Assembly (NCBI GenBank): GCA_964016885.1
Contig: OZ024744.1
Coordinates: 35,526,001-35,590,000, forward strand
Source: Eledone cirrhosa
Taxonomy: Eukaryota
Length of the DNA stretch: 64,000 nucleotides
Direction of reading: 5' to 3'
In this document: piece by piece, positions 23,755 through 63,232 of the stretch
Numbering within the stretch: the first letter of the stretch is position 1
Layout: every line of letters begins with the position of its first letter
Made by a program: the position numbers and the translations under genes
The notes under the pieces: model-generated
What the model saw: the letters and a program-made list of their open reading frames with translations, nothing else
Database searches by the model: none
Told to the model about the DNA's origin: nothing

Positions 23755-26089
23755 GGTTCTCAGATAATCGTTCCTCTGCCTTTCCTGCTTATTAATTTTC
23801 AGATTTTTTTCACCATGTCCTGCTCTTATTCCTCACCCCCACTGCTTATTAAATTTTGCTAATCTATCTCTGGCAAAATTTTATTTTAAGTGGTAGCATT
23901 CCTGCAACAATTAATTTTCTTTATTCATTAAAAAACATTATACATAACAAAAAAATAAATTACAAGAAATCCCATGTTATAAAATAAATAAAATGGGTCC
24001 GGTATTTCAATATGTAAACTAAATGACCAATTCTGGTTTATAAAATCAAGGGAGACAACCTAGAAAAATTACCGATTTTCCAACACCCAGTTTATTACCC
24101 TCCCTCTCCTATTATTTGGGACCTGAGAATATATATGTATACATGTATAAATATGTATGTATGTATATATATATATATGCCCACCCAGTGTGTTTTCTCT
24201 CACTCAATCTTGATTTCCATATCCCCCTGCACTGCCTTCATTTGTTTCCTTCCATCCTTCTCATCTGATTCACTCCACCCCCCCCCCCCTGTACTTCACT
24301 GCCCACATAACTGGAGACAGCTTAGGACCTGTTAGACACCTACTACTGCTCTTTGATATTCATCCAGCTACCCACAAGCCCCCATATCCAATGCAAGATG
24401 TGTGTGTGCCTGTAATAGTGTGATAAAAAGGGGTGCTTTTAGTCCTGTATATATCCACTATTTTTATGAACCTACTTCCCTTCCCTTGCATGAGCCCATT
24501 TCTGAATATCAACCCTCAATCCCTCTCCTCAAAATAATTGTCTAGCACAATCCACTACCATACACTTGTTCTCCCAATTTTTCTCTCTTTTCCTCTCTCT
24601 ATCTCATCAACAAAGTTTTAGCTGCTCCATCTCATCATAATCTCCTTATCTCCTCCATTACTGTCGCTATTTGCTCTGTTAAAGATACCATGATTACCAA
24701 AGTCTTAGTGCTTCAATAAAATGAACCTTGTATGTGTCCTGCTGGCTGTTCATGCTAGTGCTGCATTAAAATACATCCAATGCATACTGTAAAGTGGTTA
24801 GTGATAGAAAGTTTATCCAGCTGCACAAACCATGCCAAAGTGGAATGTATAGATATGGACTAGTCCTCAACCCATCTATTCACAGAATATGACAACCTAT
24901 TTAACCAATGCCAGTATAGAAAATGGGTGTAAAACAATGATGACGATAATATATATATAATATATGATAATAAACAAGAAAGATGGTTTCATTTGTACAT
25001 CCCTATCTATTTTGTTATATGTATTTCAAAGACGTGTGGCAATTGTATAACAGCTGCCCTACGTGTTCTCTTCAGACAAAATTCCAAATGAGATGTAAAT
25101 ATCCATTGATATGTTACTGGTCATATGTGTTATTCCCTTCGCCGACCATTAAACATATATACACACACACTTATATATATTTACATACATATGGAGGCAC
25201 AGAAAGGTTGTGAGTTCAATTCTCAGACCGGGTGATGTGTTGTTTCCTTGAGCAAGACACTTTATTTCACATTGCTCCAGTTTACTCAGCTGTAGAAATG
25301 AGATGATAGAGACTAGGGTCCATATTATTCCACTGCAAAGTGGTCGTGGAGGTGCCACGGCAAAAAAGCATCCAGCACTCACTGTAAATGAGGTTGGTGT
25401 TAGGAAGAGCATCCAGCTGTAGAAATCAAGCCTGAATCAGTTCCCGTCCCACCCTTGCAAGCAGGGAAAAGTGGACGTAAAATGATGATGATGATGATGA
25501 TGATGATACACAAACAAATTTGGGAGAGGATGTAAATTTACCATCTTTATAAATGGTTAAAAAATTATTTCCTGGTATAAAAATGTTTAATCATGATTCA
25601 CCTGTTATGATGGTAGAAAGGGATTTATCAACTGGTGTTATTAATGTAATTACTTTTATATCATATAGGTTGAACTTCATTTTATTGGCAGAAGCAATTG
25701 TATGGAGCTCTTTCCCAATTGCTTTAGCCAGCATATTCTCTATAATAAGGATTCACACATTTATATCTGTCTATATATCCCTCTCTGTCTATGTATATAT
25801 GTGTGTGTGTGTACATGTCAACAACCTATACTATCGCTACCCCGATGATATGAGTCTGCACAGCATAGAATAATTGTTTCTACTTTTGGCACAAGGCCAG
25901 CAATTATCCCAGTACATTACCGGTACTTTATTTTACCGACCCCATAAGGTTGAAAGGTAAATTAACCATGGCAGGATTTGAGCTTAGGCCGCAAAGAGCC
26001 ATAACTCTATATGCTGTAAAACATGGTGTTCGACCTTCTACCAATACTGCCAATCCACCACAACATAGAATAATGTTCCCTGACTTGCA

Positions 26090-31437: not shown

Positions 31438-31888
31438 TGTATATGTATGTGTGTGTTTTATATATCATATATTGGTTGACAGCTGAGAGAAAAGTTTACT
31501 GACTACCAAAGTAGAATTTTAATAATATATATATGTATGTGTGTGGTGTGTCAGTATAGAGGGTGTCCCCAAAAAGAATGTATATACACATTTGTAACAG
31601 TTTGTTTCCTATTTATACATGTGTGTGTAGATACACACATGTTTATCTTCTTTATTTTTTCTCAATCTTGTGAAGAAGTGTAGCCCAAACTATTATTGAC
31701 TTTTCTTACTTCTCAAGAGCATTGAACTTATATTCTTAAACTGTACCATACTCCATCTTGTTTTGCTGTTTTCTTGTTCAATATCTACCTATCCATCTCT
31801 CTCTCTGTATATATATATATATATATATACCATTTTTTAGCATTAAAAAAAAAATTTAATTTTTAAAAACTTTTTTTTTTTATTACAG

Positions 31889-32335
31889 AAAGTTTCATAA
31901 CAGTTATCACACCTGACTCATACACCTATCAACTTGTTCCCGAAGTACCTGTTAATAATAAAACGTTCTTGACATTCCAACTAAAAGCAGCAGGTGATGC
32001 ACATATTGCACTCTCAGCCATGTACAGTGAGTTGCAATGGAAAACCCATGAAATTGTTATCGGTGAGAACAATAAGCGTTCGCTGATCAGAGATGGTTCG
32101 TTGGGTCAAATTCGAGCTGAGTCAATGACAATGAATATCTTGAGTGACAAAGAATTTCGATATTTCTGGGTGAGCTGGTTAAACCATCACATTGAGGTCG
32201 GTCGAGGCAAAAAGTATGGCCAGGGTAGATTCCTTCACTGGCATGTCCCACAAAATAAACAATTCAATGTCAACTGTCTTGCTGTTTCCACTGGAAAAGC
32301 ATCAAAAGGAAGATGGGAGTTTGTAGAACTGCTTG
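31889..32335 (+). CDS. Host gene internal exon C encoding a farnesoic acid O-methyltransferase-like (Methyltransf_FA) domain
   Basis: (t)n-attacag acceptor, gtaagt donor, 447 nt, phase 1 to 1; signature F.LKA..DAHIALS...EIVIG.NN.RS.IR...ILS.KEFR.FWVSW....IEVG.G...VSTG....G.WEF. Confidence 0.9.
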
Positions 32336-33512
32336 GTAAGTTCTTTGGATGATTGTTCTTGTCTTTTAGTTGTAATGTTTTTAAATATATATGTAATTAT
32401 TTGAATATCTAGAATTTTGTGATCTTTTTCTTTCAGCATGTGTTACAGGTTCCAATTACAATTTAGAAAAAGAAATATATTTTAATTGACAAAAATCAGT
32501 GTAATTTCATTTTAAAAGTCTGTTTTATTCTGTGTTCTGATATTTCTTTTTGTTATTGTTTGTGACCATATTTCTAATAAAATGTATTCCATTTCAATTA
32601 ATTAATGAAACATTTTGAAGGTTTTACATAGAGAGTAACTCAGTGTATGGGTCTTATATAAAATTATATTGGGAGATTTTAATTTGACTAGAACACCATT
32701 TTAAAATGGATGGCTATTTTTCATAGCTTAAATCAAAAGATTTAAGTCACCCACCCAAATGCTTTTTGAAGCACATTAGATACTTCACATGTGTTATGAA
32801 AAATAATATTGAATAAACATTCCATGTTGTATCAGTTAGTAGGAAAATATAGATGTATGCTTTGTAGTTACATTCAGTTGAAGTAAACCGTTTTTTGCCT
32901 AAATACAACCACAAAAATAAAACAATTTAGATATAACAGTGGGGGCAAATTTGGTCTCCTTACCAAAGATATTTATCTATTTTCATGGATCTACTAATGT
33001 AAAGTGAAAATGTGAGCCCTAGTTGTTAAAGTGTTGTGCTCATGATTGCAATATTATAGGTTTGATTCCTAGACTTGGTAGCATGTTGTGTTCTTGAGCA
33101 AAACACTTTACTTTATGTTGCTTTAGTCTACATAGAGGAAAATGAGTATATGCAGTAACTAAAGGTTAAACCTGCAATGGGCTGGCATCCTGTGCAGAGG
33201 CATGCTCTGTACTCTCAGTTAATTAAGGCCAATGAAACCAGGATAAGATCTGGTCTGATGTGCTCCTGGGCTTCAGTCAGAAGTTAATCTATTTTAATTA
33301 ATATAAAAGGAATAAAAGAGAGAAAGTGCACATGTTACATAAAGAGATTGTATGAGGAAGATGGAAAATAAGAGAAACATATGGTATGGGATGATAGAAA
33401 GGGAGTAGGAGGGAAGAAAGATGATGGGTAATATAATATATGATCATCATCATCACTTCTTAAAATCTATTACCCACACTAGCATAGGTTAATGTGGATG
33501 ATAGATTTTAAG

Positions 33513-34483: not shown

Positions 34484-36358
34484 TCAGTGCATATATATAT
34501 ATTTCTATTCTAATCCTATATATATATATATATATATATGCACTGATGTATGTAAAATAGGGGAAAATGGGACAAAACACAAACATTTATGGACATCAGT
34601 TTTTCTAAAAAAGAAAGAAAAAAAAAACCTGTTATGCTGAACATGTAGTTGATAATTTGATGTTTTGTTCCATTTTTCCTTTGATTTCTCACATTAAAGT
34701 TTTACTCTTTTCTTTGATACCTTGGCTTGCTATTTACATACATTATATATATAGATTAAGGGCAGTATCGGTAGAGGGTCGGACGCCATGCTTTCTAGCA
34801 TAGAGTTACGGCCCCTTGCCATTCTGAGTTCAAATCCCGCCGAGGTTAACTTTACCTTTCATCCTTATGGGGTCGATAAAATAAAGAACCAGTAATGCAC
34901 TGATGTAATTGCTGGCCTTGTGCCAATAGTAGAAACAATTATATATACATTATAAATATATATATATCATCATCATTTTACGTCCGTTTTCCCCTGCTTG
35001 CAAGGGTGGGACGGGAACTGATTCTGGCTTGATTTCTACAGCTGGATGCCCTTCCTAACACCAACCTCATTTACAGTGAGTGGTGGGTGATTTTTTTCCG
35101 TGGCGCCTACACGTTCACTTTACAGTGGAATGATAGGGAACCCAGTCCCTATCATCTCATTTTTACAGCTGAGTAAACTGGAGCAATGTGAAATAAAGTG
35201 TCTTGCTCAAGGAAACAACACATCACCCGGTCTGAGAATTGAACTCACAACCTTTTGATTGCAAGCCCAATGCTCTAACCACTAAGCTATGTGCCTCCAT
35301 CCAATGTTCTCTCTCTCTCTATATATTTATATATTAATGAAAGCAGAGGATTGAGGGTGAGATTGGCAATTTTGGCTATTTATCCAAAACTGCCAAGCTC
35401 ATGGTTGATCCTCTACTTTTACTAATATATCCATTCTGCATCCTACCATGTATCGAGTACACAGATTTTTGGTCTTCCCGGCCCCCATACCACAGCACAT
35501 ATATAGGCACATAGCTTAGTGGTAAGAGCATTGGGCTTGCAATCGAAAGGTTGTGGGTTTAATTCTTGGACCGGGTGATAAGTTGTAGCCTTGAGCAAGA
35601 CACTTTATTTCACATTGCTCCAGTTTACTCAGCTGTAGAAATAGATGATAGGGACTGGGGTTCCCTATCAATCCACTGTAAAGTGAACGTGTAGGCGCCA
35701 CGGAAAAAAAATCACCTACCACTCACTGTAAATGAGGTTGGTGTTAGGAAGGGCATCCAGCTGTAGAAATCAAGCCAGAATCAGTTCCCGTCCCACCCTT
35801 GCAAGCAGGGGAAAACGGACGTAAAATGATGATGATATATATATATATATATCATTCCACTGCAAGGTGGTCGTGGAGGTGCCATGGCAAAAAAGCACCC
35901 AGCCTACACTGTAAAGTGGACATGTAGGTGCCATGGAAAAAAAGCACCCAGCACTCACTATAAATGAGGTTGGTGTTAGGAAGGCATCCAGCTGTAGCAA
36001 TCAAGCCAGAATCAGTATGAGCAAGACAAGGTCAGCCGACTGGACACTGCTCACAACAGGACAACCCGTCTAACCCATGCTAGCGTGGAAGAACGGATGT
36101 AAAACGGTGATGATGATGATGATGATGATGATATATATATATATTATGCAGCTAACTGGCCTGTCCCTCCTCATGACAGGCATCCAGCTGTAAAATACCT
36201 GACCAAATTTACAGTCCTTGCTGGAGCAAAGTGCAACATGGCCAACCATGGTCAGGCTTGTCTCCCAGCATGGAGGACCTGTCTAACACATGCAAGCATG
36301 GAAGAATTGACGCTAAATGGAAATGATGAGATATTGATAAGTTGTGGTATGGGGACCC

Positions 36359-36407
<49 letters not shown>

Positions 36408-36872
36408 GGTGTGGGTGTGTAATATATATAAGGGGTATTTGCAGAGTAAAGACCAGTAAGACCATAAATCAGTGTAGTGCTTGATAGATGATGAGATAGA
36501 AAGAGTATATTCATGAGATAAATATCTGATAGGGAACCCTACTGGTTTCAGCTTGTAACTTCTCCAAGCTTATAGGGCTTACAAGCTGAAACCACCATAG
36601 CTCATGGTTGGACCTTTACCTTATTATGGATGTATATATATATATGTATATAAGGAAAATTATAATAAAAAGGGATTGAAAAACACACCTGGTATATAAA
36701 ATGATCTTTATAACATGTACAATATATATATATATATATATGCAAAAGTTCAATTTAAAATTGTTGGGATACAACAAGTAAATATTTTATAACTGATATA
36801 AAGCACTCGACAAGTTTTTGGAGTAGATATACGATATTAAATAAATGGAAACTATATTTATAAAACCATATT

Positions 36873-36937
36873 TATTTCACTATACATATTTCAGGGATAC
36901 CAAATTAAAATATGGTATGCCTTCATCAGATAAAATA
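36873..36937 (-). ncRNA. Type I hammerhead ribozyme (element A, left arm)
   Basis: Reverse complement of 37073-37137. Confidence 0.75.
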
Positions 36938-37072
36938 CAATATATAAACAGTTTTATAAATAATTTTGACGTACCCTATTAGATGCAACCATTATTTTTG
37001 GAAGCTGTCTGACAGCTTCCAAAAATAATGGTTGGGTACGTCAAAATTATTTATAAAACTGTTTATATATTG

Positions 37073-37137
37073 TATTTTATCTGATGAAGGCATACCATAT
37101 TTTAATTTGGTATCCCTGAAATATGTATAGTGAAATA
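37073..37137 (+). ncRNA. Type I hammerhead ribozyme (element A, right arm)
   Basis: TATTTTAT-CTGATGA-AGGCATACCA[loop]TGGTATCCCT-GAAA-TATGTA-TA|GTGAAATA; predicted cut after 37129. Confidence 0.78.
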
Positions 37138-37660
37138 AATATGGTTTTATAAATATAGTTTCCATTTATTTAATATCGTATATATGTATATATATATATA
37201 TTTATGTATATATATATATATATTTATTAAAATAACAGATTAAAGTTTAAGCAAAGAATCGCTGCTTTCACCCTTAACGGGATCTTCTGAAACTAACAAA
37301 GTTCTTATATATTTGATATATATATATCCTTATCAAGCCCTCTTTGGATTTAAGTCTTCAAATTTATTATTATTACTATATATATATATGTCTGTTTAGA
37401 AACTCAGCAAAATTTGGAATTTATGAGAAAGTTAAAGGTTCATCAAATTTATTTACTATACAAATATAGTTGAAATAGTAGGGCATATAAGCTCCCTCAA
37501 TGAAAAAAAATGGACATTAGGTACTAATATCCATATTTTCCTATATATTATACTATATTTCTATAGTAAAAAAAACAATTCAATGAAGCTTCTTTCTCAT
37601 AAATATATATATACACACACATTCAGACACACATATATATATATATATGTATATACATAT

Positions 37661-37762
37661 GTGGTGTCCCAAAAATGTATACACACTTCAACAGCATTCT
37701 AATAAATATTGCCTGTACGCGTAATCAAAGTGTGTATACATATTTGGGGGGGACACCCTGTA
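37661..37762. mobile_element. Tc1/mariner-type MITE
   Basis: TIRs ggtgtcccaaaaatgtatacacac / gtgtgtatacatatttggggggacaccctg-TA; partial relative at about 31557-31600. Confidence 0.55.
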
Positions 37763-37970
37763 TATATATATGTTGTGTGAATATATATATACATAATAAT
37801 ACTATTTATAGTTATGTATACACTATATACAACTATAAACAGGAAAGGTCAGTAATTCATTACTACCTTATTATCAGTAAGAAAAATAGCTCAATGTAAA
37901 TACATCAGATGTTTTACAGAGCCGGAATATAAATTACACAATAATCAAAGCTATGTTCAAATCATTTTAT

Positions 37971-38017
37971 TGCTGACAATCGTTTCTTCCAAACTATCAA
38001 TTGGAATCATCGGAGCA
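37971..38017 (-). ncRNA. Hammerhead ribozyme, U4C core variant (element H, left arm)
   Basis: TGCT-CCGATGA-TTCCAA..TTGGAA-GAAAC-GATT-GTC|AGCA. Confidence 0.7.
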
Positions 38018-38207
38018 CTAGCAATGTTTGTACATATAATTAACCTCCTATCCAACTGAACAATCATATAGATACATGGATATTAATGTCAAAAACCGTT
38101 TTGTATTTACAAGGTGAAATGGATGCGACATAGATTACAATAATTAAAATTACAAATAAAAATTACAAATTGGATAGTAGGTTAATTATATGTACAAACA
38201 TTGCTAC

Positions 38208-38254
38208 TGCTCCAATGATTCCAAATGATAGTTTGGAAGAAACGATTGTCAGCA
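38208..38254 (+). ncRNA. Hammerhead ribozyme with G5A core change (element H, right arm; probably inactive)
   Basis: TGCT-CCAATGA-TTCCAAA..TTTGGAA-GAAAC-GATT-GTC|AGCA. Confidence 0.55.
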
Positions 38255-38309
38255 ATAAAATGATTTGAACATAGCTTTGATTATTGTGTAATTTATATAT
38301 ATATATACA

Positions 38310-38465
38310 TATATTTATTATAAGAACAGATTAAAGTTTAAGCAAAGAATTGCTGCTTTCACTCTTAACAAGATCTTCTGAAACTTCTGAGACCTCAGAA
38401 GATCCCATAAAGGGTGAAAGCAGTGATTCTTTGCTTAAACTTTAATCTGTTCTTATAATAAATAT
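38310..38465. repeat. Fold-back pair of the 835-945 repeat family
   Basis: About 70-bp inverted arms atatttattataagaacagattaaagtttaagcaaagaat...cttctga / tcagaag...ttcttataataaatat. Confidence 0.8.
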
Positions 38466-38622
38466 TTGTTCTGTGGGTTTATATATATATATATATATGT
38501 AGGAGGTGAGTTTTATTGTAGTACAATAAAGCAATGCAGATATCGGATAAGAAGCACTCTACAGTTTGTAGGACTGGAGTATGCATAATATAAGATCAAA
38601 AGATGGTTAAAGGAGTTCCATG

Positions 38623-38693
38623 TATTTTATTATGCGCATTTCAAAAACAAACATCATCATGCAATAATATTTGTGTTTTCATCAGATAAAACA
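38623..38693 (-). ncRNA. Type I hammerhead ribozyme (element B, left arm)
   Basis: Reverse complement of 38812-38882. Confidence 0.75.
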
Positions 38694-38811
38694 GGAGAAC
38701 ATGATATGAAGGCTAAAAAACACTTGTGGATAGTGCAGTTTTAAATCAACATATGTTGATTTAAAACTGCACTATCCACAAGTGTTTTTTAGCCTTCATA
38801 TCATGTTCTCC

Positions 38812-38882
38812 TGTTTTATCTGATGAAAACACAAATATTATTGCATGATGATGTTTGTTTTTGAAATGCGCATAATAAAATA
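38812..38882 (+). ncRNA. Type I hammerhead ribozyme (element B, right arm)
   Basis: TGTTTTAT-CTGATGA-long stem II (ACAAATATTATT-GCAT-GATGATGTTTGT)-GAAA-TGCGCA-TA|ATAAAATA; palindromic stem III ATGCGCAT; predicted cut after 38874. Confidence 0.78.
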
Positions 38883-38909
38883 CATGGAACTTTAACCATC
38901 TTTTGATCT

Positions 38910-38951
<42 letters not shown>

Positions 38952-38995
38952 TATAAAAATAGACAAAGAAGCCTTCAATACATCAAAAGTCTTTA

Positions 38996-39041
38996 TTAGC
39001 CTACAATGTTTCGTCCCATTAATCAGGACTCATCAGAGCAA
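38996..39041 (-). ncRNA. Type I hammerhead ribozyme (element C, left arm)
   Basis: GCT-CTGATGA-GTCC-TGATTAATG-GGAC-GAAAC-ATT-GTA|GGC. Confidence 0.8.
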
Positions 39042-39867
39042 GTAAACAGATAAGAAGCATTAACGGCCAGAACTATCCAAAACTCAGAAGAATAGGGAAT
39101 TCATATCCATGAAAGCTTATGAGAGATATGAAGGAAAAGCATGCTAAAGCTAAAAGTGTGCAGTTACAAATATAGACTATAGGGCAATAAAGTGAGTAAA
39201 ATGTAAAACCAACGTTGAAATTACAGTATAAGACAAATACATTAAATACAACATGGTAATACAATGTGAGAATTACAATATGATATAGAATACAATATAA
39301 TGGGTAATAAGAAATATAAAGCTTAATATATGTATATATATATCCATATATATACACATTTACACAAACACATACTAACACTTAATAAGTATAAATATAC
39401 TCTCTATAATATAAAAATCACCCTGACGGTGCGCATAAACTTTTTTTGTATAGTTTATTTTTTGTATAGTTTATGCGCACTGTCAGGGTGATTTTTATAT
39501 TATAGAGAGTATATTTATACTTATTAAGTGTTAGTATGTGTTTGTGTAAATGTGTATATATATGGATATATATATACATATATTAAGCTTTATATTTCTT
39601 ATTACCCATTATATTGTATTCTATATCATATTGTAATTCTCACATTGTATTACCATGTTGTATTTAATGTATTTGTCTTATACTGTAATTTCAACGTTGG
39701 TTTTACATTTTACTCACTTTATTGCCCTATAGTCTATATTTGTAACTGCACACTTTTAGCTTTAGCATGCTTTTCCTTCATATCTCTCATAAGCTTTCAT
39801 GGATATGAATTCCCTATTCTTCTGAGTTTTGGCTAGTTCTGGCCATTAATGCTTCTTATCTGTTTAC

Positions 39868-39913
39868 TTGCCCTGATGAGTCCTGATTAATGGGACGAAA
39901 CATTGTAGGCTAA
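39868..39913 (+). ncRNA. Type I hammerhead ribozyme (element C, right arm)
   Basis: GCC-CTGATGA-GTCC-TGATTAATG-GGAC-GAAAC-ATT-GTA|GGC; canonical core; predicted cut after 39907; AATAAA follows. Confidence 0.85.
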
Positions 39914-40060
39914 TAAAGACTTTTGATGTATTGAAGGCTTCTTTGTCTATTTTTATAATTTTTCGGCTCTGTTGTATTACATTGAGCTATACCCTATACT
40001 GTCATTTCTATAATACGACGAGTGTGTTTTACTCCAATGCACTCTAGTATTTTAATTCTT

Positions 40061-40116
40061 ATATATATATATATATATTGTATATTATATATATATTATA
40101 TATATATTATATATAA

Positions 40117-40209
<93 letters not shown>
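40061..40209. repeat. (TA)n microsatellite
   Basis: Direct reading. Confidence 0.97.
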
Positions 40210-40212
<3 letters not shown>

Positions 40213-40409
40213 ATCCTTATCAGGCCCTCTTCGGCTTTTAGTCTTCACATTTATTATTACTATATATATATATTTTTTATTTTTGCATATAGTTTTGCAA
40301 AATTTTGGTGAAGAACAATGGGTTATGTGCTAGTATATATATTATATAACAATAGAATATTAAATAAAATAATACAATTAAACAAATTATATGACATTTT
40401 TTCAATTAG

Positions 40410-40430
40410 ATGCTTATGTTGATCCAAGTG
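40410..40430 (+). CDS. Candidate 21-nt microexon of the host gene (DAYVDPS)
   Basis: ttttttcaattag|ATGCTTATGTTGATCCAAGTG|gtaagt; phase 1 to 1, open in the frame of exon C. Confidence 0.6.
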
Positions 40431-41787
40431 GTAAGTCTCTTAATTCTACATTTTTTTAATTCCTGTGTATTTCATGTCTGCATGAATTGCTTTCAGTTTT
40501 GTGTCACTTATTACTATTAATTTATTAATTATTACAACTCTATAATAGTTTTAAATTATTTCATATGCATGGTATGAAAATGTAGATTTTAAAAATAATT
40601 TTTTTCATTATTAAAATATAACATATGTGTGTCTTAGTGTGTATTTATGCATGCTGGTTTTCTCCTCAAATGATTTATTACCTCCACGTTATATACACTT
40701 TACCTTTAAACCATTATTACATATGTATGTATATATATGTGTGTGTGTGTATGCGTGTCTGTATGTATGTATAGTTGCATGTAATGTATTATAGGGATTA
40801 TTTGCTCTATGGTTAAGCTTAAACCGTTTTAAAAGCAAACTTTTCTATCAAAATAGCATTAGCTTATCTGTAGAGCAAGGAATCTCTATACTATATATAT
40901 ATTTACTGTGTACTAAGTTGAATTATGGTCTTAGTAGTATCGTCCACACACTCATATATCAAAGTCATCAAATGTCTGTTTCTTCTATGCTGGCAAGGGT
41001 TTGACATGTCATACAATGTCTGTTTCTTCCATGCTGGCATGGGTTTGACATGTCGTACAATGTCTCATTATTCATGGTGACATTGCCTTCAAAGGTTTAG
41101 TCCATTATATTATTATCAGTTTATATTGTGTTTAAAGTCTGGTGCTTATTTTATCGATCTTTACTGTTATGACCATCCCATCTTAGGTTTTTAAAAAAAA
41201 AGATGTTAAGGTGTTATTTGAAGAGAATTTGATGGTTATTTCTTGTTGGTCAAATAAGCACATAAAGGAAACGCCCAGTAGTTTCTGTCAGCTTTGTATA
41301 TCAATTAACCAACTGAATTTCAGTCATTAGATTACGGCCATGTTGGGCTACTGTTTTGAAGAGATTTTGATTGATCGTATTGACCCCACTACTTGTTTTA
41401 TTGATAACTTTTTGTTGAACCTCTATATTACAGGACATAAACACAGGTACATTCATACACTCACACACACACTCATACATATATGTATATATACATAATA
41501 GGCGTCCATGCAGTGTCTGTCTATCAAATTTTTCTCACAAGACATTCGTCAACCTCATCATGCCTGAGCACATCCTGAGGTGCTCAGGCATGATGAGCCT
41601 GCGGGCTTGAGGCAGATTTTAACTATAAAAGTTCTATTATTTATCATATATACTATAGATTGTGACAGACTGGTTTTCCGTCCAAGGGCACGTCTTGTCT
41701 TGAACTCACTGTTACCTAGTGCCATTGAAACTAAGCCATGCTCTGGCTTGATCTTCCTGTCATTTTTGGACACACTTTAACCTTTTT

Positions 41788-42014
41788 AACCATTTAGTAT
41801 TTAAACCGGCCGTATCTGGCCAGAATTCTCTCATCTCTTTCTGTTCAAACCAACTGTAACCAGCTGCTCATACTGATGTTAAGGTATTGTTCTCAAAATA
41901 AATAATATCAAAATCTCATAAGTCTGATAGTATGTTAGATAATTATGTAAGGTAAAGTGTTTACCATGGAAATATAATAGTATATATAGAGTAATGTAAA
42001 TAGTAAAGGGTTAA
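41788..42014. mobile_element. piggyBac-like MITE (TTAA-CC...AAAGGG-TTAA)
   Basis: Homologous to 58391-58821, which has TTAA|CCCTTTA...TAAAGGG|TTAA. Confidence 0.6.
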
Positions 42015-42300
42015 CTTAATACATTGAAGAGGAGTAATACTATCATCTCAGTTTGACAATGTCAATGTATTCAAAGCCACTGTTATTGCTATGTTCTTTA
42101 TATATGACATTCATCTATTTACCCACCCATTCTTCTGTTTCATATATATATATGTTGAAGAGTTAAACAAAATTCAATGAGTATATCAAAGAATGAGTTT
42201 TACAGTAGGTTGTAAGCACTCTACGGAAAAAATAATTTTCGGGAGTTATTAATATTAGAATATAAATATTAATAAAATAGATTTTCTTTTGATCAATTAT

Positions 42301-42353
42301 ATTTTATTATACATATTTCAGATGTACAACAGTACGTCCTCATCAGACAAAAT
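42301..42353 (-). ncRNA. Type I hammerhead ribozyme (element D, left arm)
   Basis: ATTTTGT-CTGATGA-GGACGTAC-TGTT-GTACATCT-GAAA-TATGTA-TA|ATAAAAT. Confidence 0.75.
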
Positions 42354-43360
42354 ATAATGATACATCACACATACCCTGAGATGTTAAATGGTTAAGAATT
42401 AATCAAGGTAGTGATTAACCTAAGCAAAAATTTAACATTTACCGTAATAATGAGAAAATGCAAAAAACGTAATAAATTCAATAGAGAATGTGTGAGTAAG
42501 AAAAACGTTGCTTAATGTACCAGTTATCTAGATATGTATGATACTACAATTCATCTAGGAAAGCATGTCATGAATTATAACAGTCAGTGAGAGAGAGAGG
42601 GAAAGATGAGGGGGTAATGTATGCAGAAGGAGATTTTTTCCCGAAAGTTAAACGGTTAAGTTTGAAAATATTTAATTTATGTTATCTTAGGTTTTTTTTA
42701 AAAATTGGTGGTTATTTATATATTAGTTTTGTAAATTTTATAAGTGTGTTAACACTTCTAAGCTTCTGAATTTTTTGATGATAAGATTAAAAGGGTTTAG
42801 CTGGCCATTATTAAGGAAAGTTTACACTGTTGAATATTTTCCTAAATGTAATCTTTAATGAATTTAGTCATTGTGAACGTATTAGGTATGTAAAGCTTTT
42901 GAAGTACTTATTGTTAGAAAAATTTAAATAACGGTTATGTATATAGATATATATTAATTAATGAGCCAGTATATTTTAGGTAAATGATAATGAAAATAAA
43001 ATGAAATAAAATAAAATAAAAATAAAAATAATAGATTGAGTCATGTTAAAATTAAATATATACCCATATATAACTGTGTAATGTATTAATTATTCCTAGC
43101 TCAAAGTAAAAACAATCAAAAAATTTAGAAGTTAACTGAAAATTATGTATAGAAAGATAGAGAGAGTTATATTGTATTAGGTAATAGTGATACAGTATAC
43201 TTTAGGTAAATGATAACGGTTATAATTTTATATAATAAAGTTCTACGTGTTAAATACATATATATATATATAAGAAAAACAATAATAAATGCATGGATAA
43301 TTCATAGTTCAAAATAATGTTTATAATAATTTGTAATTTGGATATTTGCTCTATATTTGA

Positions 43361-45272
43361 ATCATCATCATCATCATCATCAACGTTTAACGTCCGTGTT
43401 CCACGCTTGCATGGGTTTGGACGGGGGTAGTCCCACTTGAGGCAAGAATGATTGTCTTGCTCGCATAGGACTGTCTGGCAGGTTTTCTACAGTTGGATGC
43501 CCTTCCTAACACCAACCACATTTACAGTGTGGGTCTGGGAGGTTTTTACCGTGTTGCCTACACGGCCACATTACAGCGTGGACTGTGTGTTTTTTTGTCG
43601 TGACACCTACACGATCTCATTTGTTTCGGCCCGGATGGCGCGGCACCAACATAACTTTACATAGGACGGGGTGGTGTGGATGGGGTGGGGGTGGTGGTGG
43701 TGGGACGGGGTGTATTTTGTTAGAGATGCCTACTGGCAAGGCGGGTCTTCTCTGTTACTGAGTACCGCCAAAGGTCTCGGTCCAGTGACATTGTCTTGGA
43801 GAGGTGTAAGTGTGTGAGGTCGGAGTTTATCAGCTCGTCCCAGGTTTTTCTAGGTCTGCCTATTCCGTGGCTACCGTCTATCTTTATTGCCCTGCACTTT
43901 GTTATACAGCTATCGACTTTCGTGCGCATCACGTGTCCATACCAACGTAGCCTTCTCTCGAGTAAACAACATCTGATCCCTCTTATCTCTAATTTTTTCC
44001 TTAGTTCGTTTATGCTTTGCCGTTCACGTATATTACTGTTACACATCCAGCGGAGCATGCAAGCTTCGTTCCTCTCTAGTCTGCGTATATCCTCTGCACA
44101 CAATGCCCAGGTCTCACTGCCATGCAACATTGCTGTTCGTATGCAGGCATCGTACAACCTGCCTTTCATTTTTAGGGAGAACCCTTTAGCAGCTAATAGT
44201 GGTATAAGCTCTCTGAACTTTTTCCAACCAGTTCTGACTCTAGCTACAGTACTTTCAGAGCACCCTCCCCCACTGCTGATTTTATCGCCCAGGTAACGGA
44301 AGCTGTCCACTATTTCTATAGAACCCTCTGCGCAATTGAAAGAGCTAGTATTTTGTGGGCACTTGCTGCTACTTATTGCACCAGAACACCGGCCACATGT
44401 AAAATCTATGTTCTTAGTTAGCTTACCTGTGATCCCACTACATCTTTTATGCACCCATACTTTGCATTTAGGACACAAAATGGAGTTTCTACCTACGCCT
44501 TTCCTACACACCGAGCACGACCATTTCCCAGAAGGGACCGCCGCCTTGTTTTCTTTCCTACAAACTAGAACTTTGGTCTTAGCCAGGTTAATTTTAAGTC
44601 CTTTTGACTCTAGGCCGTGCTTCCATGTTTGGAATTTCTTCTCTAGCTCGGCCATTGATTCCGCTATGAGTGTCAGGTCGTCTGCGTATAGGAGTTCCCA
44701 TGGGCAGCCTGTCTTGAACTCCTCTGTTATAGCCTGAAGGGCAATAATAAATAGTAGGGGGCTGAGAACAGAGCTCTGATGGACGCCAACTTTTACGCTA
44801 AACTCTTCACTATATTCGTTGTTAATTCTAACCTTGCTGACTGTTTCTTTATACATGGCTTGTATAGCCCTCACAAGCCATTCGTCAACGCCTAGTTTTC
44901 TAAGAGCCCACCAGATAATGGAGCGGGGGACTCTGTCGAAGGCTTTCTCCAAGTCGACAAAAGCTAAGTAGAGGGGTTTACCTTTAGCTAGGTACTTCTC
45001 CTGTAGTTGTCGTACTATGAAAAGAGCGTCTGTGGTACTTTTGCCTGACACAAACCCGAACTGCATTTCATCTAGGTCAATTCTCTCTCTGATTAGTTGC
45101 GCTATTACTTTTTCTGTGACCTTCATGACCTGGTCGATTAATTTAATGCCTCTATAGTTACTCCTATCTAGGGCGTCTCCTTTACCCTTATAACAGTTAA
45201 CGATGATGCTGCTATGCCAGTCCTTCGGAACAACCCCATTCTGTACGACTTGGTTAACTATGCGGGTGACCA
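43361..45272 (-). mobile_element. 5'-truncated RTE LINE (relatively young)
   Basis: Open RT frame, 3' UTR and (GAT)n tail; inserted at ATCAT within element D. Confidence 0.92.
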
Positions 45273-45273
45273 T
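43720..45273 (-). CDS. RTE reverse transcriptase with PHD-like finger (open frame, lacks the N-terminal APE endonuclease)
   Basis: YRGIKL, QFGF, FVDLEKAFDRV, GVHQSSVLSP, LLYADDL, CSVC..CPKC..WVHKRC..CGRC, FRYLG, RRLRWYGHV, GRPRKTW. The first ~20 aa of the listed ORF come from flanking DNA. Confidence 0.85.
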   Translation of the reverse strand: MVTRIVNQVVQNGVVPKDWHSSIIVNCYKGKGDALDRSNYRGIKLIDQVMKVTEKVIAQLIRERIDLDEMQFGFVSGKSTTDALFIVRQLQEKYLAKGKPLYLAFVDLEKAFDRVPRSIIWWALRKLGVDEWLVRAIQAMYKETVSKVRINNEYSEEFSVKVGVHQSSVLSPLLFIIALQAITEEFKTGCPWELLYADDLTLIAESMAELEKKFQTWKHGLESKGLKINLAKTKVLVCRKENKAAVPSGKWSCSVCRKGVGRNSILCPKCKVWVHKRCSGITGKLTKNIDFTCGRCSGAISSSKCPQNTSSFNCAEGSIEIVDSFRYLGDKISSGGGCSESTVARVRTGWKKFRELIPLLAAKGFSLKMKGRLYDACIRTAMLHGSETWALCAEDIRRLERNEACMLRWMCNSNIRERQSINELRKKLEIRGIRCCLLERRLRWYGHVMRTKVDSCITKCRAIKIDGSHGIGRPRKTWDELINSDLTHLHLSKTMSLDRDLWRYSVTEKTRLASRHL

Positions 45274-47050
45274 CATGGATATAATATTGCGGTAGGGTAT
45301 ATTTAAAAGCATAGAAAATATAATTACATACATATTATAAATAAGAGATCAGAAACGCATGAAAATTTCACAGTTATAAATAAGTTCAGTAAAGATGTTA
45401 AACTCAGATTTAAAACTTAAGTAGGAAGATAAGGATCGAGAAATAAAGAAATAATGGTATGGATCAAAATCGACAGAAATTATGTTATGTGTATCAATGT
45501 TCCAGCATGTTACTGAACAAGTGTCTTTCATTCTTAGCCTCCCACAAAACGAGAAAAAAAGAGAAAGAAACATTAAACCATTAAAAACTTGGTTGTCAGA
45601 CGTATAAAATCAACAGGGAAAACCTTTAGTGGCTTTTAATATTGCACTATCTATAGAAGAAATAACTGTTTCTACTTTAGGCACAAGGGCAGCAATTACC
45701 CAGTACATTTCTGGTACTTTATTTTATCGACCCCGTAAGGATGAAAGGCAAAGTTAACCTCGGCGGGATTTGAACTCAAAGAAATAACGCTCGAATGAAA
45801 GACACTTTTTCAATAACATGCCGGAACATTGATACACATAACATTATTCTGTTAACTTTGATCCATACCATTATTTCTTTATTTCTCTATCCTTATCTTC
45901 TTACTTAAGTTTTAAATCTGAGTTTTATATCCAACCTTTACATCTTTACTGAACTTATTTATAACTGTGAAATTTTCATGCGTTTCTGATCTCTTATTTA
46001 TAATATGTATGTAATTATATTTTCTATGTTTTTAAATATATCTACCGCATTCTTATATCCATGATTCAAATATAGAGCAAATATCCAAATTACAAATTAT
46101 TAGAAACATTATTTTGCATTTATTATTGTTTTTCTTATATATATATATGTATTTAACACGTAGAACTTTATTATATAAAATTATAACCGTTATCATTTAC
46201 CTAAAGTATACTGTATCACTATTACCTAATACAATATAACTCTCTCTATCTTTCTATACATAATTTTCAGTTAACTTCTAAATTTTTTGATTGTTTTTAC
46301 TTTGAGCTAGGAATAATTAATACATTACACACAGTTATATATGGGTATATATTTAATTTTAACACGCCTCAATCTATTATTTTTATTTTTATTTTATTTT
46401 ATTTTATTTTATTTTATTTTCATTATCATTTACCTAAAATATACTGGCTCATTAATTAATATATATCTATATACATAACCGTTATTTAAATTTTTCTAAC
46501 AATAAGTACTTCAAAAGCTTTACATACCTAATACGTTGACAATGACTAATTTCATTAAAGATTACATTTAGGAAAATATTCAACAGTGTAAACTTTCCTT
46601 AATAATGGCCAGCTAAATCCTTTAAATCTTATCATCAAAAAATTCAGAAGCTTAGAAGTGTTAACACACTTATAAAATTTACAAAACTAATATACAAATA
46701 ACCACCAATTTAAAAAAAACACCCAAGATAACATAAATTAAATATTTTCAAGCTTAACCGTTTAACTTTTGGGAAAAAATTTCCTTCTGCATACGTTACC
46801 CCCTCATCTTTCCCTCTCTCTCACTGACTGTTATAATTCATGAAATGCTTTCCTAGATGAATTGTAGTATCATACATATCTAGATAACTGGTACATTAAG
46901 CAACGTTTTTCTTACTCACACATTCTCTATTGAATTTATTACGTTTTCGCATTTTCTCATTATTAGGGTATAAATGTTAAATTTTTGCTTAGGTTAAACT
47001 TGATTAAATCTTAACCATTTAACATCTCAGGGTATGACATGTATCATTAT

Positions 47051-47103
47051 ATTTTGTCTGATGAGGATGTACTGTTGTACATCCGAAATATGTATAATAA
47101 AAT
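47051..47103 (+). ncRNA. Type I hammerhead ribozyme (element D, right arm)
   Basis: ATTTTGT-CTGATGA-GGATGTAC-TGTT-GTACATCC-GAAA-TATGTA-TA|ATAAAAT; perfect 8-bp stem II, 7-bp stem I; predicted cut after 47096. Confidence 0.87.
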
Positions 47104-47172
47104 GTAATTGATCAAAAGAACATCTATTTTATTAATATTTATATTCTATATTTATATATATATAAGAAGTCA

Positions 47173-47595
47173 TATAATTGCAGAGACCCATCGCTATGCC
47201 CCCTTAGTAATGAATGCATGACCAAAAACGTGGTGTACAGGTGCAAGGTCACAACCCCTAACTCGGAGCATCACTACATAGGATCCACAGCGACGAGCTT
47301 CAAAGCTCGGTGGTATAACCATCGCCATTCCTTTAACAGAATAGATAAGAGGAAATGTACGGCCCTTTCTGAATTGATCTGGAAGGTCAAACTTGAAAAG
47401 AACCCGCACTCTCTGGTCTGGTCCGTGGTTTGAAAGGTTCCCCCAGACAGAGGTGGGTCTGGTATTTGCAACCTCTGTCTTAGTGAGACACTCGAGATTC
47501 TTCATGGCGGAACCAAGCTATTAAACAGAAGAGCCGACTTATTCGGTGCCTGCAGACACCTAAGGACGGGAACTTTCCTCAAGCTATATGGATAA
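47173..47595 (+). pseudogene. GIY-YIG endonuclease remnant of a Penelope-like element (C-terminal EN)
   Basis: NCR...CPL..EC..KNVVYRC...HYIGSTATSFKARWYNHRHSF...TALS..IW...(TGA)...CNLCLSE..EI....LLNRR.DL...CRH; one internal TGA at 47431-47433. Confidence 0.82.
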
Positions 47596-48399
47596 ACCCC
47601 GGCTACGGCCTCCCACAAGCCCCCACCCTGGTAGATCCCCTACACCCCGTACCAATGACCAATGGACAACAACAAACCCCCATAGTTTGTGGTCCCTATG
47701 GTGGATGGTCCACCGGATCCTCTACTGGTTAGGAGTGATCTAAACAATGTTTTATTGAACCTGATTTTATATATATATGTATACATGTAACATGTGTATT
47801 TTATATGTGTATGTATGCATATTTTATATATGTGTGCGTATCTGTATGTATATATTTTATATATATGTGTGTGTGTAATTTTTTAATATATATATATGTA
47901 TATTTTACGTGTGTATATATTTTGTGTGTGTGTGTGTATTCTATGTATATATATATTTTATATATATATATACGTGTATACTTGTGCGTACATGCATGCA
48001 TGTATATATATATACACACCTGTATGGATTTGTGTCTGTAGATGTGTGAGTGTTTGAGGGGATAGGTGTGAGTGTATGTACAAGTGAACCAGCATAATCC
48101 TTTTATTTCTGAATTTTCTAAACTATCTAAGTATTGGACTCTAACCATTATATTAAGTATTACCACCCCACTCTTTGTATGTGTCTGTGGAGGTGTGTGT
48201 GAGTGTAGTGCAAGCCAACCTACATAAGCCTTTTTATTTGTAAACTTTCTACTGCAACCATAATTTTCAGTAGCACCACTCCACATAAATTCCTCAATTT
48301 AAGAATGACCTGTAGTATCTATTTCATACTATTAAAAATAAAGTACCAGTAATGCACTGGGTAATTGCTGGCCTTGTGCCTAAAGTAGAAACAACTATT

Positions 48400-48772
48400 A
48401 ACCTTATTTGAAAATATATCTGACCAAGAATGCCTTTTGTGAAAATCAGTCATGTGGAACTATTGTCATCTTGCCTGACGGTTTGAACCTTACAGAACCA
48501 CCTGCCTTTTTGAGGTCAAATACCAACCTACTACCATCTACAAACTGACCATTGAGAATCAAGACTATTCCTGCTGACAACATCAAATTATTCCTAACAA
48601 GCTCATATGTCCCAAGGCTCTGATACCATCAACACTATAAACACAGAGCTGGCATATCTAAGAACTGACTAACTGCCTGATGAGGTCATAGCCATTCAAT
48701 GGCTATCATCGAAATATATATAGCAGTAAATAAAGGATTATGAGTTCATGCAATTGACTTATGTTTCGTCAC
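48400..48772 (+). mobile_element. PLE-like 3' fragment (family E) ending in a hammerhead and (TA)n
   Basis: PDGLN-coding remnant near 48474-48488; 48605-48749 is almost identical to 63109-63254. Confidence 0.6.
48672..48727 (+). ncRNA. Type I hammerhead ribozyme (family E, copy 1)
   Basis: ACTGC-CTGATGA-GGTCATAGCCA-TTCAA-TGGCTATCATC-GAAA-TATATA-TA|GCAGT; predicted cut after 48722. Confidence 0.85.
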
Positions 48773-63176: not shown

Positions 63177-63232
63177 ACTGCCTGATGAGGTCATAGCCAT
63201 TCAATGGCTATCATCGAAATATATATAGCAGT
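63177..63232 (+). ncRNA. Type I hammerhead ribozyme (family E, copy 2)
   Basis: Identical to 48672-48727. Confidence 0.85.

What the first reader, a model, noticed from the sequence alone, without database searches (positions are those of the whole stretch)
36640..47150. Cluster of unrelated fold-back elements, each carrying outward-facing hammerhead ribozymes in both arms
Seen: five palindromic elements (A 36827-37183, H 37927-38299, B 38585-38917, C 38946-39963, D 42251-47148) share no primary sequence in their arms but share one design. Each has inverted arms, a type I hammerhead motif near each outer end oriented outward, a ~100-200-nt extension on one side only, and (TA)n flanks. Stems I, II and III differ in sequence yet pair in every case, which is covariation around an almost invariant C(U/C)GAUGA/GAAA/UH core. 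Established: Penelope-like elements (PLEs) carry minimal type I hammerheads in their terminal repeats, can insert as inverted copies with an asymmetric tail, and some clades favour microsatellites. Inference: this is a diverse set of non-coding, ribozyme-bearing fold-back retroelements mobilised by PLE RT/GIY-YIG enzymes into TA repeats. It may be uncatalogued in this lineage.
Basis: partly seen in the sequence, partly recalled or inferred. Interest (0 to 1): 0.9.

Follow-up and report, generated by a model that had tools for sequence, protein, structure and literature searches.

The report
Penelope retrotransposons primed from both ends
The palindromes are truncated ends of five ordinary, protein-coding Penelope-type retrotransposon families, and about a hundred examined copies suggest that each insertion is likely built from two DNA copies started at two different sites on the RNA, which would explain a long-puzzling feature of these elements.

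Summary
The palindromes, hammerhead motifs, one-sided extensions and (TA)n flanks are real. They are not a separate non-coding class. In other genomic copies, all five arms run into a Penelope-like element (PLE) ORF with RT, a cysteine linker and GIY-YIG (Neptune type). A, B, C, D and H are therefore 5'-truncated 3' ends of five autonomous families. An inverted truncated copy with a one-sided tail is a published PLE layout.

The copies constrain the mechanism:
- In family B, 69 of the first 100 listed tail ends pair with an inverted tail-less end; only 3 elements have two tails.
- 13 of 66 measured pairs share no sequence between the arms, and in 26 more the tail-less arm is longer. A simple fold-back of one cDNA cannot give this.
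- Many arms stop at one point about 70 nt upstream of the ribozyme, often with an extra G, as expected at a capped RNA 5' end.

Best model (inferred): two cDNAs are primed from the two cut target ends at two RNA start sites on uncleaved RNA, then joined head to head. Ribozyme cleavage was not tested.

The parts
36741..36826 (-). A tail (about 86 nt), between start sites S1 and S2; begins with RCTC...GAGY hairpin
   Evidence: matches L159; present on one arm in 8 of 8 A pairs
36827..37183 (.). Family A insertion: two inverted short arms; hammerhead cores at 36929 (-) and 37081 (+), predicted cut after 37129
   Evidence: arm continues into a PLE ORF in L159 and L158
37226..37378 (.).
37795..37926 (-). 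H tail (about 130 nt)
   Evidence: matches L166
37927..38298 (.). Family H insertion; left core CCGATGA intact at 38013 (-), right core mutated; tailed arm longer
   Evidence: endonuclease frame upstream in L166
38307..38480 (.). Second family E insertion, short palindrome with truncated tail
   Evidence: (I12)
38500..38584 (-). B tail (about 87 nt); in tandem copies it runs on into the 5' UTR and ORF
   Evidence: L016, L018, L170
38585..38917 (.). Family B insertion; both arms stop at the inferred RNA 5' end (A at 38751) and meet at CATATG; cores at 38685 (-) and 38820 (+), predicted cut after 38874
   Evidence: 12,029 exact 26-mer hits genome-wide
38946..39963 (.). Family C insertion, arms of 496 nt of 3' UTR; predicted cut after 39907
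   Evidence: ORF upstream in L162
39964..40062 (+). C tail (about 98 nt)
40211..40262 (+). Lone family E tail piece between TA runs
42153..42250 (-). D tail (about 98 nt)
42251..45525 (-). D left (tailed) arm, interrupted by the RTE insertion; core at 42346
43366..45271 (-). RTE-type LINE fragment (542-aa RT frame) inserted later into D's left arm only
   Evidence: (RVT_1 E 2.7e-30); the RTE label is recalled
45529..47148 (+). D right (tail-less) arm, about 260 nt longer than the left, starting just after the endonuclease frame's end in L161; core at 47058, predicted cut after 47096
47165..48770 (+). Seventh PLE family fragment beside D: GIY-YIG frame 47176-47592 (one stop), 3' UTR, hammerhead at 48677, tail-less end, (TA)n
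   Evidence: GIY-YIG E 0.0018, below the curated cut-off; 44% to the B protein, E 1e-28

Best explanation
These are 5'-truncated insertions of five autonomous Neptune-type Penelope-like retrotransposon families, each likely made by two-ended priming: two cDNAs started at two different internal sites of the element RNA and joined head to head. Shown: every arm is the 3' UTR end of a family with an RT + Cys-linker + GIY-YIG ORF; the two ends of an insertion differ by the tail (one stops at S1, about 45-55 nt past the ribozyme cut site, the other at S2, 85-135 nt further); either arm can be longer, and they need not overlap. Inferred: the endonuclease cuts both strands of a (TA)n target. Each 3' end pairs with a UA-rich spot (S1 or S2) and primes its own cDNA, probably on the two halves of a protein dimer. 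Each cDNA stops independently, often at the capped 5' end about 55-80 nt upstream of the ribozyme. The two cDNA ends are joined through 0-6 nt of microhomology or a few added letters. A palindrome results only where both cDNAs copied the same stretch. The RNA copied was uncleaved at the ribozyme, so cleavage is not needed for these insertions. Clusters would form because each insertion leaves (TA)n targets on both sides.
For: ORF link in all five families; endonuclease regions 39-52% identical between families. Among the first 100 listed B ribozyme hits, 33 of 36 neighbour pairs within 6 kb face outward. Ribozyme-anchored pairs carry exactly one tail: B 23 of 25 (one end destroyed, one flank duplication; L020's tail has a deletion and was read by eye), A 8 of 8, C 4 of 4, D 7 of 7, H 7 of 7 (L169 by eye). 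Free 50:50 choice would give 1e-7 for B alone. Of the first 100 listed B tail ends, 69 have an inverted tail-less partner and 3 elements have two tails. Of 66 measured pairs, 13 share no sequence, 26 have the tail-less arm longer, 9 the tailed arm longer, and 18 are equal. 51 arm ends stop at or beside one position; the letter before is the templated C in 19, G in 18, T in 8, A in 6 (G in 18 of 32 non-C letters, p 6e-7 at an assumed 17% G). In 6 of 9 cases where only the tail-less arm reaches that point, G precedes it. Independent short-read contigs show joints to 38751 with G or AG inserted. In D, 11 of 14 nearby arm ends (true junctions picked by eye) lie within 2 nt of the A of TCACT, 31 nt after TATAAA. 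In vitro, an anole PLE cuts and extends both strands, starts at two sites that bound the tail, uses uncleaved RNA and is predicted to dimerise (PMC11167929, main text up to Methods read).
Against: All mechanism steps are read from end products; no RNA run holds the element, so the start site and cap are untested. Three two-tailed elements and 6 tail ends joined straight to (TA)n break the rule; 3 more have only a stub of the partner and 9 were unresolved. The tail-anchored sample cannot see tail-less/tail-less insertions, and long tailed arms run out of the 4.2 kb fetched, which inflates 'tail-less arm longer'. Three rows have wrong arm lengths by eye; this shifts the 26/9/18 split by about one. 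Palindromes can lose their centres later. In PMC11167929 the start site did not differ between strands. The G excess is clear only in B; D shows it in 1 of 5 ends at +1.
Confidence: 0.68

Rival explanations
1. Same autonomous PLE ends, but made by snap-back: one cDNA primed at the tail end folds on itself, is copied back to S1, and later deletions erode the palindromes.
For: 18 of 66 pairs have equal arms, several meeting at the self-complementary CATATG. The two arms are as alike as or more alike than the best other copy in 30 of 42 elements (mean mismatch 3.3% against 8.7% to other copies; a few high values unchecked). It gives one tail naturally.
Against: It forbids a longer tail-less arm and non-overlapping arms, yet these are 39 of 66. 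They include tail pieces at 100% identity and a 3.7-kb tail-less arm beside a 39-nt tail piece. Window D itself has the longer tail-less arm. Tail-less arms carry their own extra G.
Confidence: 0.17
2. The tail difference arises after synthesis: both ends are first complete and the endonuclease trims one at S1 while resolving the intermediate (the explanation suggested in PMC8557442), with two cDNAs or one.
For: S1 is TA-rich and resembles the target. PMC8557442 calls the tail most likely a result of EN-mediated resolution. The 3 two-tailed elements would be untrimmed cases.
Against: PMC11167929 maps the tail to two RT start sites. C ends carry reiterated short units in 6 of 14 tail-less ends, which looks like slippage at priming (by eye). 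Trimming alone does not explain non-overlapping arms.
Confidence: 0.1
3. One reading: non-coding, ribozyme-bearing fold-back elements that move as palindromic units using PLE enzymes in trans.
For: Most short copies lack coding sequence, and many B copies have nearly the same length. Non-autonomous PLE derivatives exist (PMC8557442 passages; bioRxiv 10.64898/2026.07.22.740005, tandem retrozymes).
Against: Arm lengths vary from 30 nt to 3.7 kb and run into ORFs. Junctions differ letter by letter between copies, so palindromes are not copied as units. The common length follows from a shared stop point.
Confidence: 0.04
4. Assembly or library fold-back artefact.
For: A and B arms are 100% complementary over 139-150 nt. 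No listed contig spans the whole stretch.
Against: D's left arm alone holds a 1.9-kb LINE. C, D and H arms differ by 1-6%. The one-tail rule is family-specific. An 83-nt contig from another run bridges a B-type centre (record 4; it may be another copy).
Confidence: 0.01

Closest known systems
Neptune-clade Penelope-like elements (EN+ PLEs)
   Same: Single ORF, RT followed by a cysteine-rich linker and C-terminal GIY-YIG; hammerhead in the terminal repeat; microsatellite bias; heavy 5' truncation (PMC8557442, PMC3846280).
   Different: Tails of 85-135 nt against the published 30-40 nt; 3' UTRs of about 1-1.7 kb; not compared with Repbase or Dfam, so family names are unknown.
Penelope (Drosophila virilis) and Pen2a_Av (Adineta vaga) inverted-pLTR insertions
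   Same: Inverted 5'-truncated copy with a tail optionally on one of the inverted pLTRs; promoter and Inr inside the pLTR (PMC3846280, PMC2377424 passages).
   Different: Described there as optional structure. Here it is a near-strict S1+S2 pairing over about 100 copies, including non-palindromic minis.
Poseidon PAc of Anolis (in vitro)
   Same: Two internal RT start sites bounding the tail, a stem-loop there, both strands cut and extended, ribozyme cleavage dispensable (PMC11167929).
   Different: Other clade; in PAc the ribozyme and tail lie inside the ORF start, here about 60-200 nt before it; the parts read give no model for inverted copies.
Minimal and palindromic-stem-III PLE hammerheads
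   Same: Type I fold, long stem II, palindromic helix III; dual motifs 100-700 bp apart on opposite strands seen in Schistosoma (PMC4209133).
   Different: Family E has core CAGAAGA and a 5-bp stem III that could fold as a monomer (read by eye; not in the predicted minimum-energy fold).
Animal non-LTR retrozymes
   Same: Type I hammerheads of PLE origin, no protein in the short copies.
   Different: Retrozymes are head-to-tail tandem arrays; these are head-to-head truncated ends of coding families.
L1 twin priming (recalled)
   Same: Both target ends prime a cDNA, giving an inversion.
   Different: In L1 the second primer anneals at a variable internal place and the pieces do not overlap; here both starts are fixed and the pieces often overlap.

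Membership tests
EN+ Penelope-like element | Single ORF with PLE-type RT and C-terminal GIY-YIG endonuclease | tested here: met
   821-codon frame in L034 with DKT, MG and YRDD motifs and a GIY-YIG-like end (motif names recalled). Pfam gave no hit on it; a 44%-identical neighbour hits GIY-YIG weakly. ORF pieces for A, C, D, H, E.
EN+ Penelope-like element | pLTR formed by partial tandem, with tail and inverted 5'-truncated copy | tested here: met
   L170: inverted arm, short pLTR, ORF, 3' pLTR; direct partial tandem in L279
EN+ Penelope-like element | Target-site duplication | tested here: inconclusive
   Flanks are (TA)n (63 of 66 tail-less ends); no empty site examined
Neptune clade | Cysteine-rich linker between RT and endonuclease | tested here: met
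   CxCx5C...C block in A, B, C, D, E and the seventh family; H copy truncated there. Spacing is not literally CX2-5CxxC as written in PMC8557442.
Neptune clade | RT phylogeny with Neptune rather than Nematis references | not testable with these tools
Type I hammerhead ribozyme | Conserved core with stems I-III pairing in different letters | tested here: met
   14 motif clusters in 1.07 Mb of overlapping loci; stem III fully self-complementary in 11 cluster representatives, partly in 3; cofold gives the intermolecular helix III for B and D
Type I hammerhead ribozyme | Rfam model match | tested here: not met
Type I hammerhead ribozyme | Self-cleavage | not testable with these tools
   No RNA data
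Non-LTR retrozyme | Head-to-tail tandem units each with a hammerhead | tested here: not met
   33 of 36 neighbouring B hits are outward-facing; 2 same-strand
Non-autonomous PLE derivative or MITE-like unit | Fixed internal structure copied as a unit, no cognate ORF | tested here: not met
   Variable junctions and ORF continuity

The most novel reading that the evidence does not exclude
PLEs integrate by obligatory two-ended priming: a protein dimer primes one cDNA at each of two fixed RNA start sites from the two cut target ends, so every insertion is S1 on one side and S2 on the other. The palindromic stem III of the hammerhead serves to pair two template RNAs rather than to cut them. This would be a retrotransposition route distinct from LINE and LTR mechanisms and would explain inverted pLTRs and the one-sided tail in one step.
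Probability: 0.35. Interest if true: 0.8.

Novelty: new member of a known kind. Interest (0 to 1): 0.5.

Why it matters
The elements themselves belong to a known class. How PLEs make inverted copies with a one-sided tail is named as an open question (PMC8557442, section 15). This genome holds more than ten thousand exact ribozyme and tail matches for single families (12,029, 13,921 and 20,908), with long tails that make the two ends easy to tell apart. That turns the question into counting and gives an open 821-codon frame for an in vitro test. Such short palindromes may also be misfiled as MITEs or miRNA hairpins (the top Rfam hits were sub-threshold miRNA models).

Tried and rejected
Rfam: no hammerhead hit. 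DNA search of the own genome with the B arm found nothing, not even the window's copy, because common words are skipped. A genome-wide count of short palindromes was not obtained; counts rest on the first 100 listed hits on contig C1. Pfam found nothing on the B ORF. No RNA holder listed. Earlier scan notes: none. Arms ending at the ribozyme cut site: only 2 among roughly 140 B arm ends, too few to claim a cleaved template. Arm-to-arm identity cannot tell one RNA from two RNAs of one master or from later conversion.

Not in print, as far as nine paper searches reach: none of the papers opened gave a two-ended model or a strict one-tail rule. Subscription papers such as Arkhipova 2006 and Evgen'ev and Arkhipova 2005 were not seen, and no supplements were read; Repbase-type family lists there may already name these families.

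Papers seen: PMC11167929 parts 1-2 of 4; PMC3846280 parts 1-3 of 5; PMC4209133 parts 1-2 of 4; PMC8557442 passages and section 15; bioRxiv 2026.07.22.740005 part 1 of 5 and passages; PMC2377424, PMC9977147, PMC13282606, PMC8967140 passages only.
Full report
Observation. A type I hammerhead descriptor finds 7 strict motifs in 36640-47150 and none in 200 shuffles. C's motif needs a looser stem I, and H's right core is mutated. Rfam does not detect these motifs. Across 1.07 Mb of fetched, partly overlapping loci there are 14 motif clusters; stem III is self-complementary in different letters in 11 and partly so in 3. This is the dimer-type design described for metazoan PLEs (PMC4209133). Cleavage was not tested.

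Copy number and identity. Exact 26-28-letter patterns give 12,029 hits for B, 2,429 for D, 109 for H, 76 for A and 21 for C in a 3.0-Gb genome; these are lower bounds tied to one subfamily's letters. Following arms inward in other copies leads to a PLE ORF for every family. B has an 821-codon open frame in L034 and a full inverted-plus-partial-tandem copy in L170. A links in L159, C in L162, D in L161 and H in L166. UTRs are collinear between copies of a family and with the window arms. The endonuclease regions are 39-52% identical between families and follow a cysteine-rich linker, the Neptune feature named in PMC3846280 and PMC8557442. The arms differ because they are the 3' UTRs of different families. 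The genome looks like an octopus-type genome from recalled repeat content (not tested); Penelope-like families are already reported as abundant in Octopus vulgaris (PMC13282606, passages).

Known layout. An inverted 5'-truncated copy and a 30-40 bp tail at one end are published PLE features (PMC8557442, PMC3846280). Paired hammerheads on opposite strands 100-700 bp apart were seen in Schistosoma (PMC4209133). The finding is therefore a new set of members, not a new class.

One-tail rule. Pairs picked by the ribozyme alone carry exactly one tail in 23 of 25 B, 8 of 8 A, 4 of 4 C, 7 of 7 D and 7 of 7 H cases; the two B exceptions are a destroyed end and a flank duplication. I then followed all of the first 100 listed B tail ends on contig C1. 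Outcome: 69 have an inverted tail-less partner; 4 ends belong to 3 two-tailed elements; 3 are internal tandem junctions; 6 join (TA)n directly; 4 have a partner whose outer end is destroyed or out of range; 3 have a partner stub; 1 is a duplicate; 1 has an inverted tandem copy running out of range; 9 are unresolved.

Not fold-backs. Of 66 pairs measured, 13 have a tail piece of 87 nt or less that shares nothing with the other arm, 26 have the tail-less arm longer, 9 the tailed arm longer, and 18 are equal (three rows need hand correction of about one count, and the 4.2-kb fetch favours short tailed arms). Snap-back of one cDNA allows only the last two classes. The window shows this too: D's tail-less arm is longer, and the family E piece at 37226-37378 has non-overlapping arms. 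Junctions show short overlaps or a few added letters.

A common stop. 51 B arm ends stop at or beside the A at window 38751, about 70 nt before the ribozyme core. The letter before is C (templated) in 19, G in 18, T in 8 and A in 6. Contigs of independent runs show joints to 38751 with G or AG inserted. An added G is the recalled signature of copying a cap. In D, nearby ends cluster on the A of TCACT, 31 nt after TATAAA; in E, G precedes AGTTT in 3 of 4 ends at that point. I infer a capped transcript that starts in the pLTR and runs through ribozyme, S1, tail, S2 and ORF. These cDNAs crossed the ribozyme cut site, so their templates were uncleaved, as found in vitro for the anole element (PMC11167929).

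Mechanism. Inferred: both strands of a (TA)n target are cut. One end primes at S1 and the other at S2, both UA-rich spots beside a hairpin shared by all five tails. The two cDNAs stop independently and are joined head to head. Short equal palindromes such as B are double run-offs at the RNA 5' end; long arms come from the 3' copy of the repeat. Whether one RNA or two are used is open: the arms match each other's subfamily, which fits either. Rivals are snap-back with later deletion and endonuclease trimming.

Artefact. Unlikely: D has a LINE in one arm only, arms of C, D and H have diverged, and an independent contig bridges a B-type centre.

Verdict. The value lies in the copy-level evidence on how PLEs integrate. 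None of the papers opened from nine searches states the pairing rule, but older subscription papers and supplements were not seen.

Noticed in passing
window 37226-37378, 38307-38480, 40211-40262; L282-L311: Family E, with 20,908 exact hits and a PLE ORF (L283, L303-L307), has hammerhead-like core CAGAAGA in most copies (AGTTTCAGAAGA in 30 of 50) and a 5-bp stem III. It is either an active core variant or an abundant family whose ribozyme has decayed.
   Followed up: partly
L080, L082, L084, L093-L095 (family C tail-less ends): Two to five reiterated TTTTATAAT-like units before the (TA)n in 6 of 14 ends, suggesting template slippage at priming, telomerase-like (by eye).
   Followed up: no
tails of A, B, C, D, H, E: Shared hairpin motif RCTC...GAGY just after S1 in otherwise unrelated UTRs; candidate protein-binding signal.
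   Followed up: partly
window 47165-48770, 63182, 25075: Further PLE hammerheads outside the finding: a seventh family beside D with a GIY-YIG frame, an identical motif at 63182, and another motif at 25075 (-).
   Followed up: partly
L034 1629-4091: Asparagine-rich stretch between RT thumb and linker, longer in B and C than in E, recalling the N-rich inserts of Adineta Penelopes (PMC3846280).
   Followed up: no
window 31867-32352 (+): Host exon with a farnesoic acid O-methyltransferase-like domain (Pfam PF12248, E 7e-22); the cluster may lie in an intron of this gene.
   Followed up: no
window 35232-35289 (-) and 45661-45778: tRNA-like head of a probable SINE, and a second short repeat that also sits inside the D and C 3' UTRs in ORF-bearing copies.
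   Followed up: no
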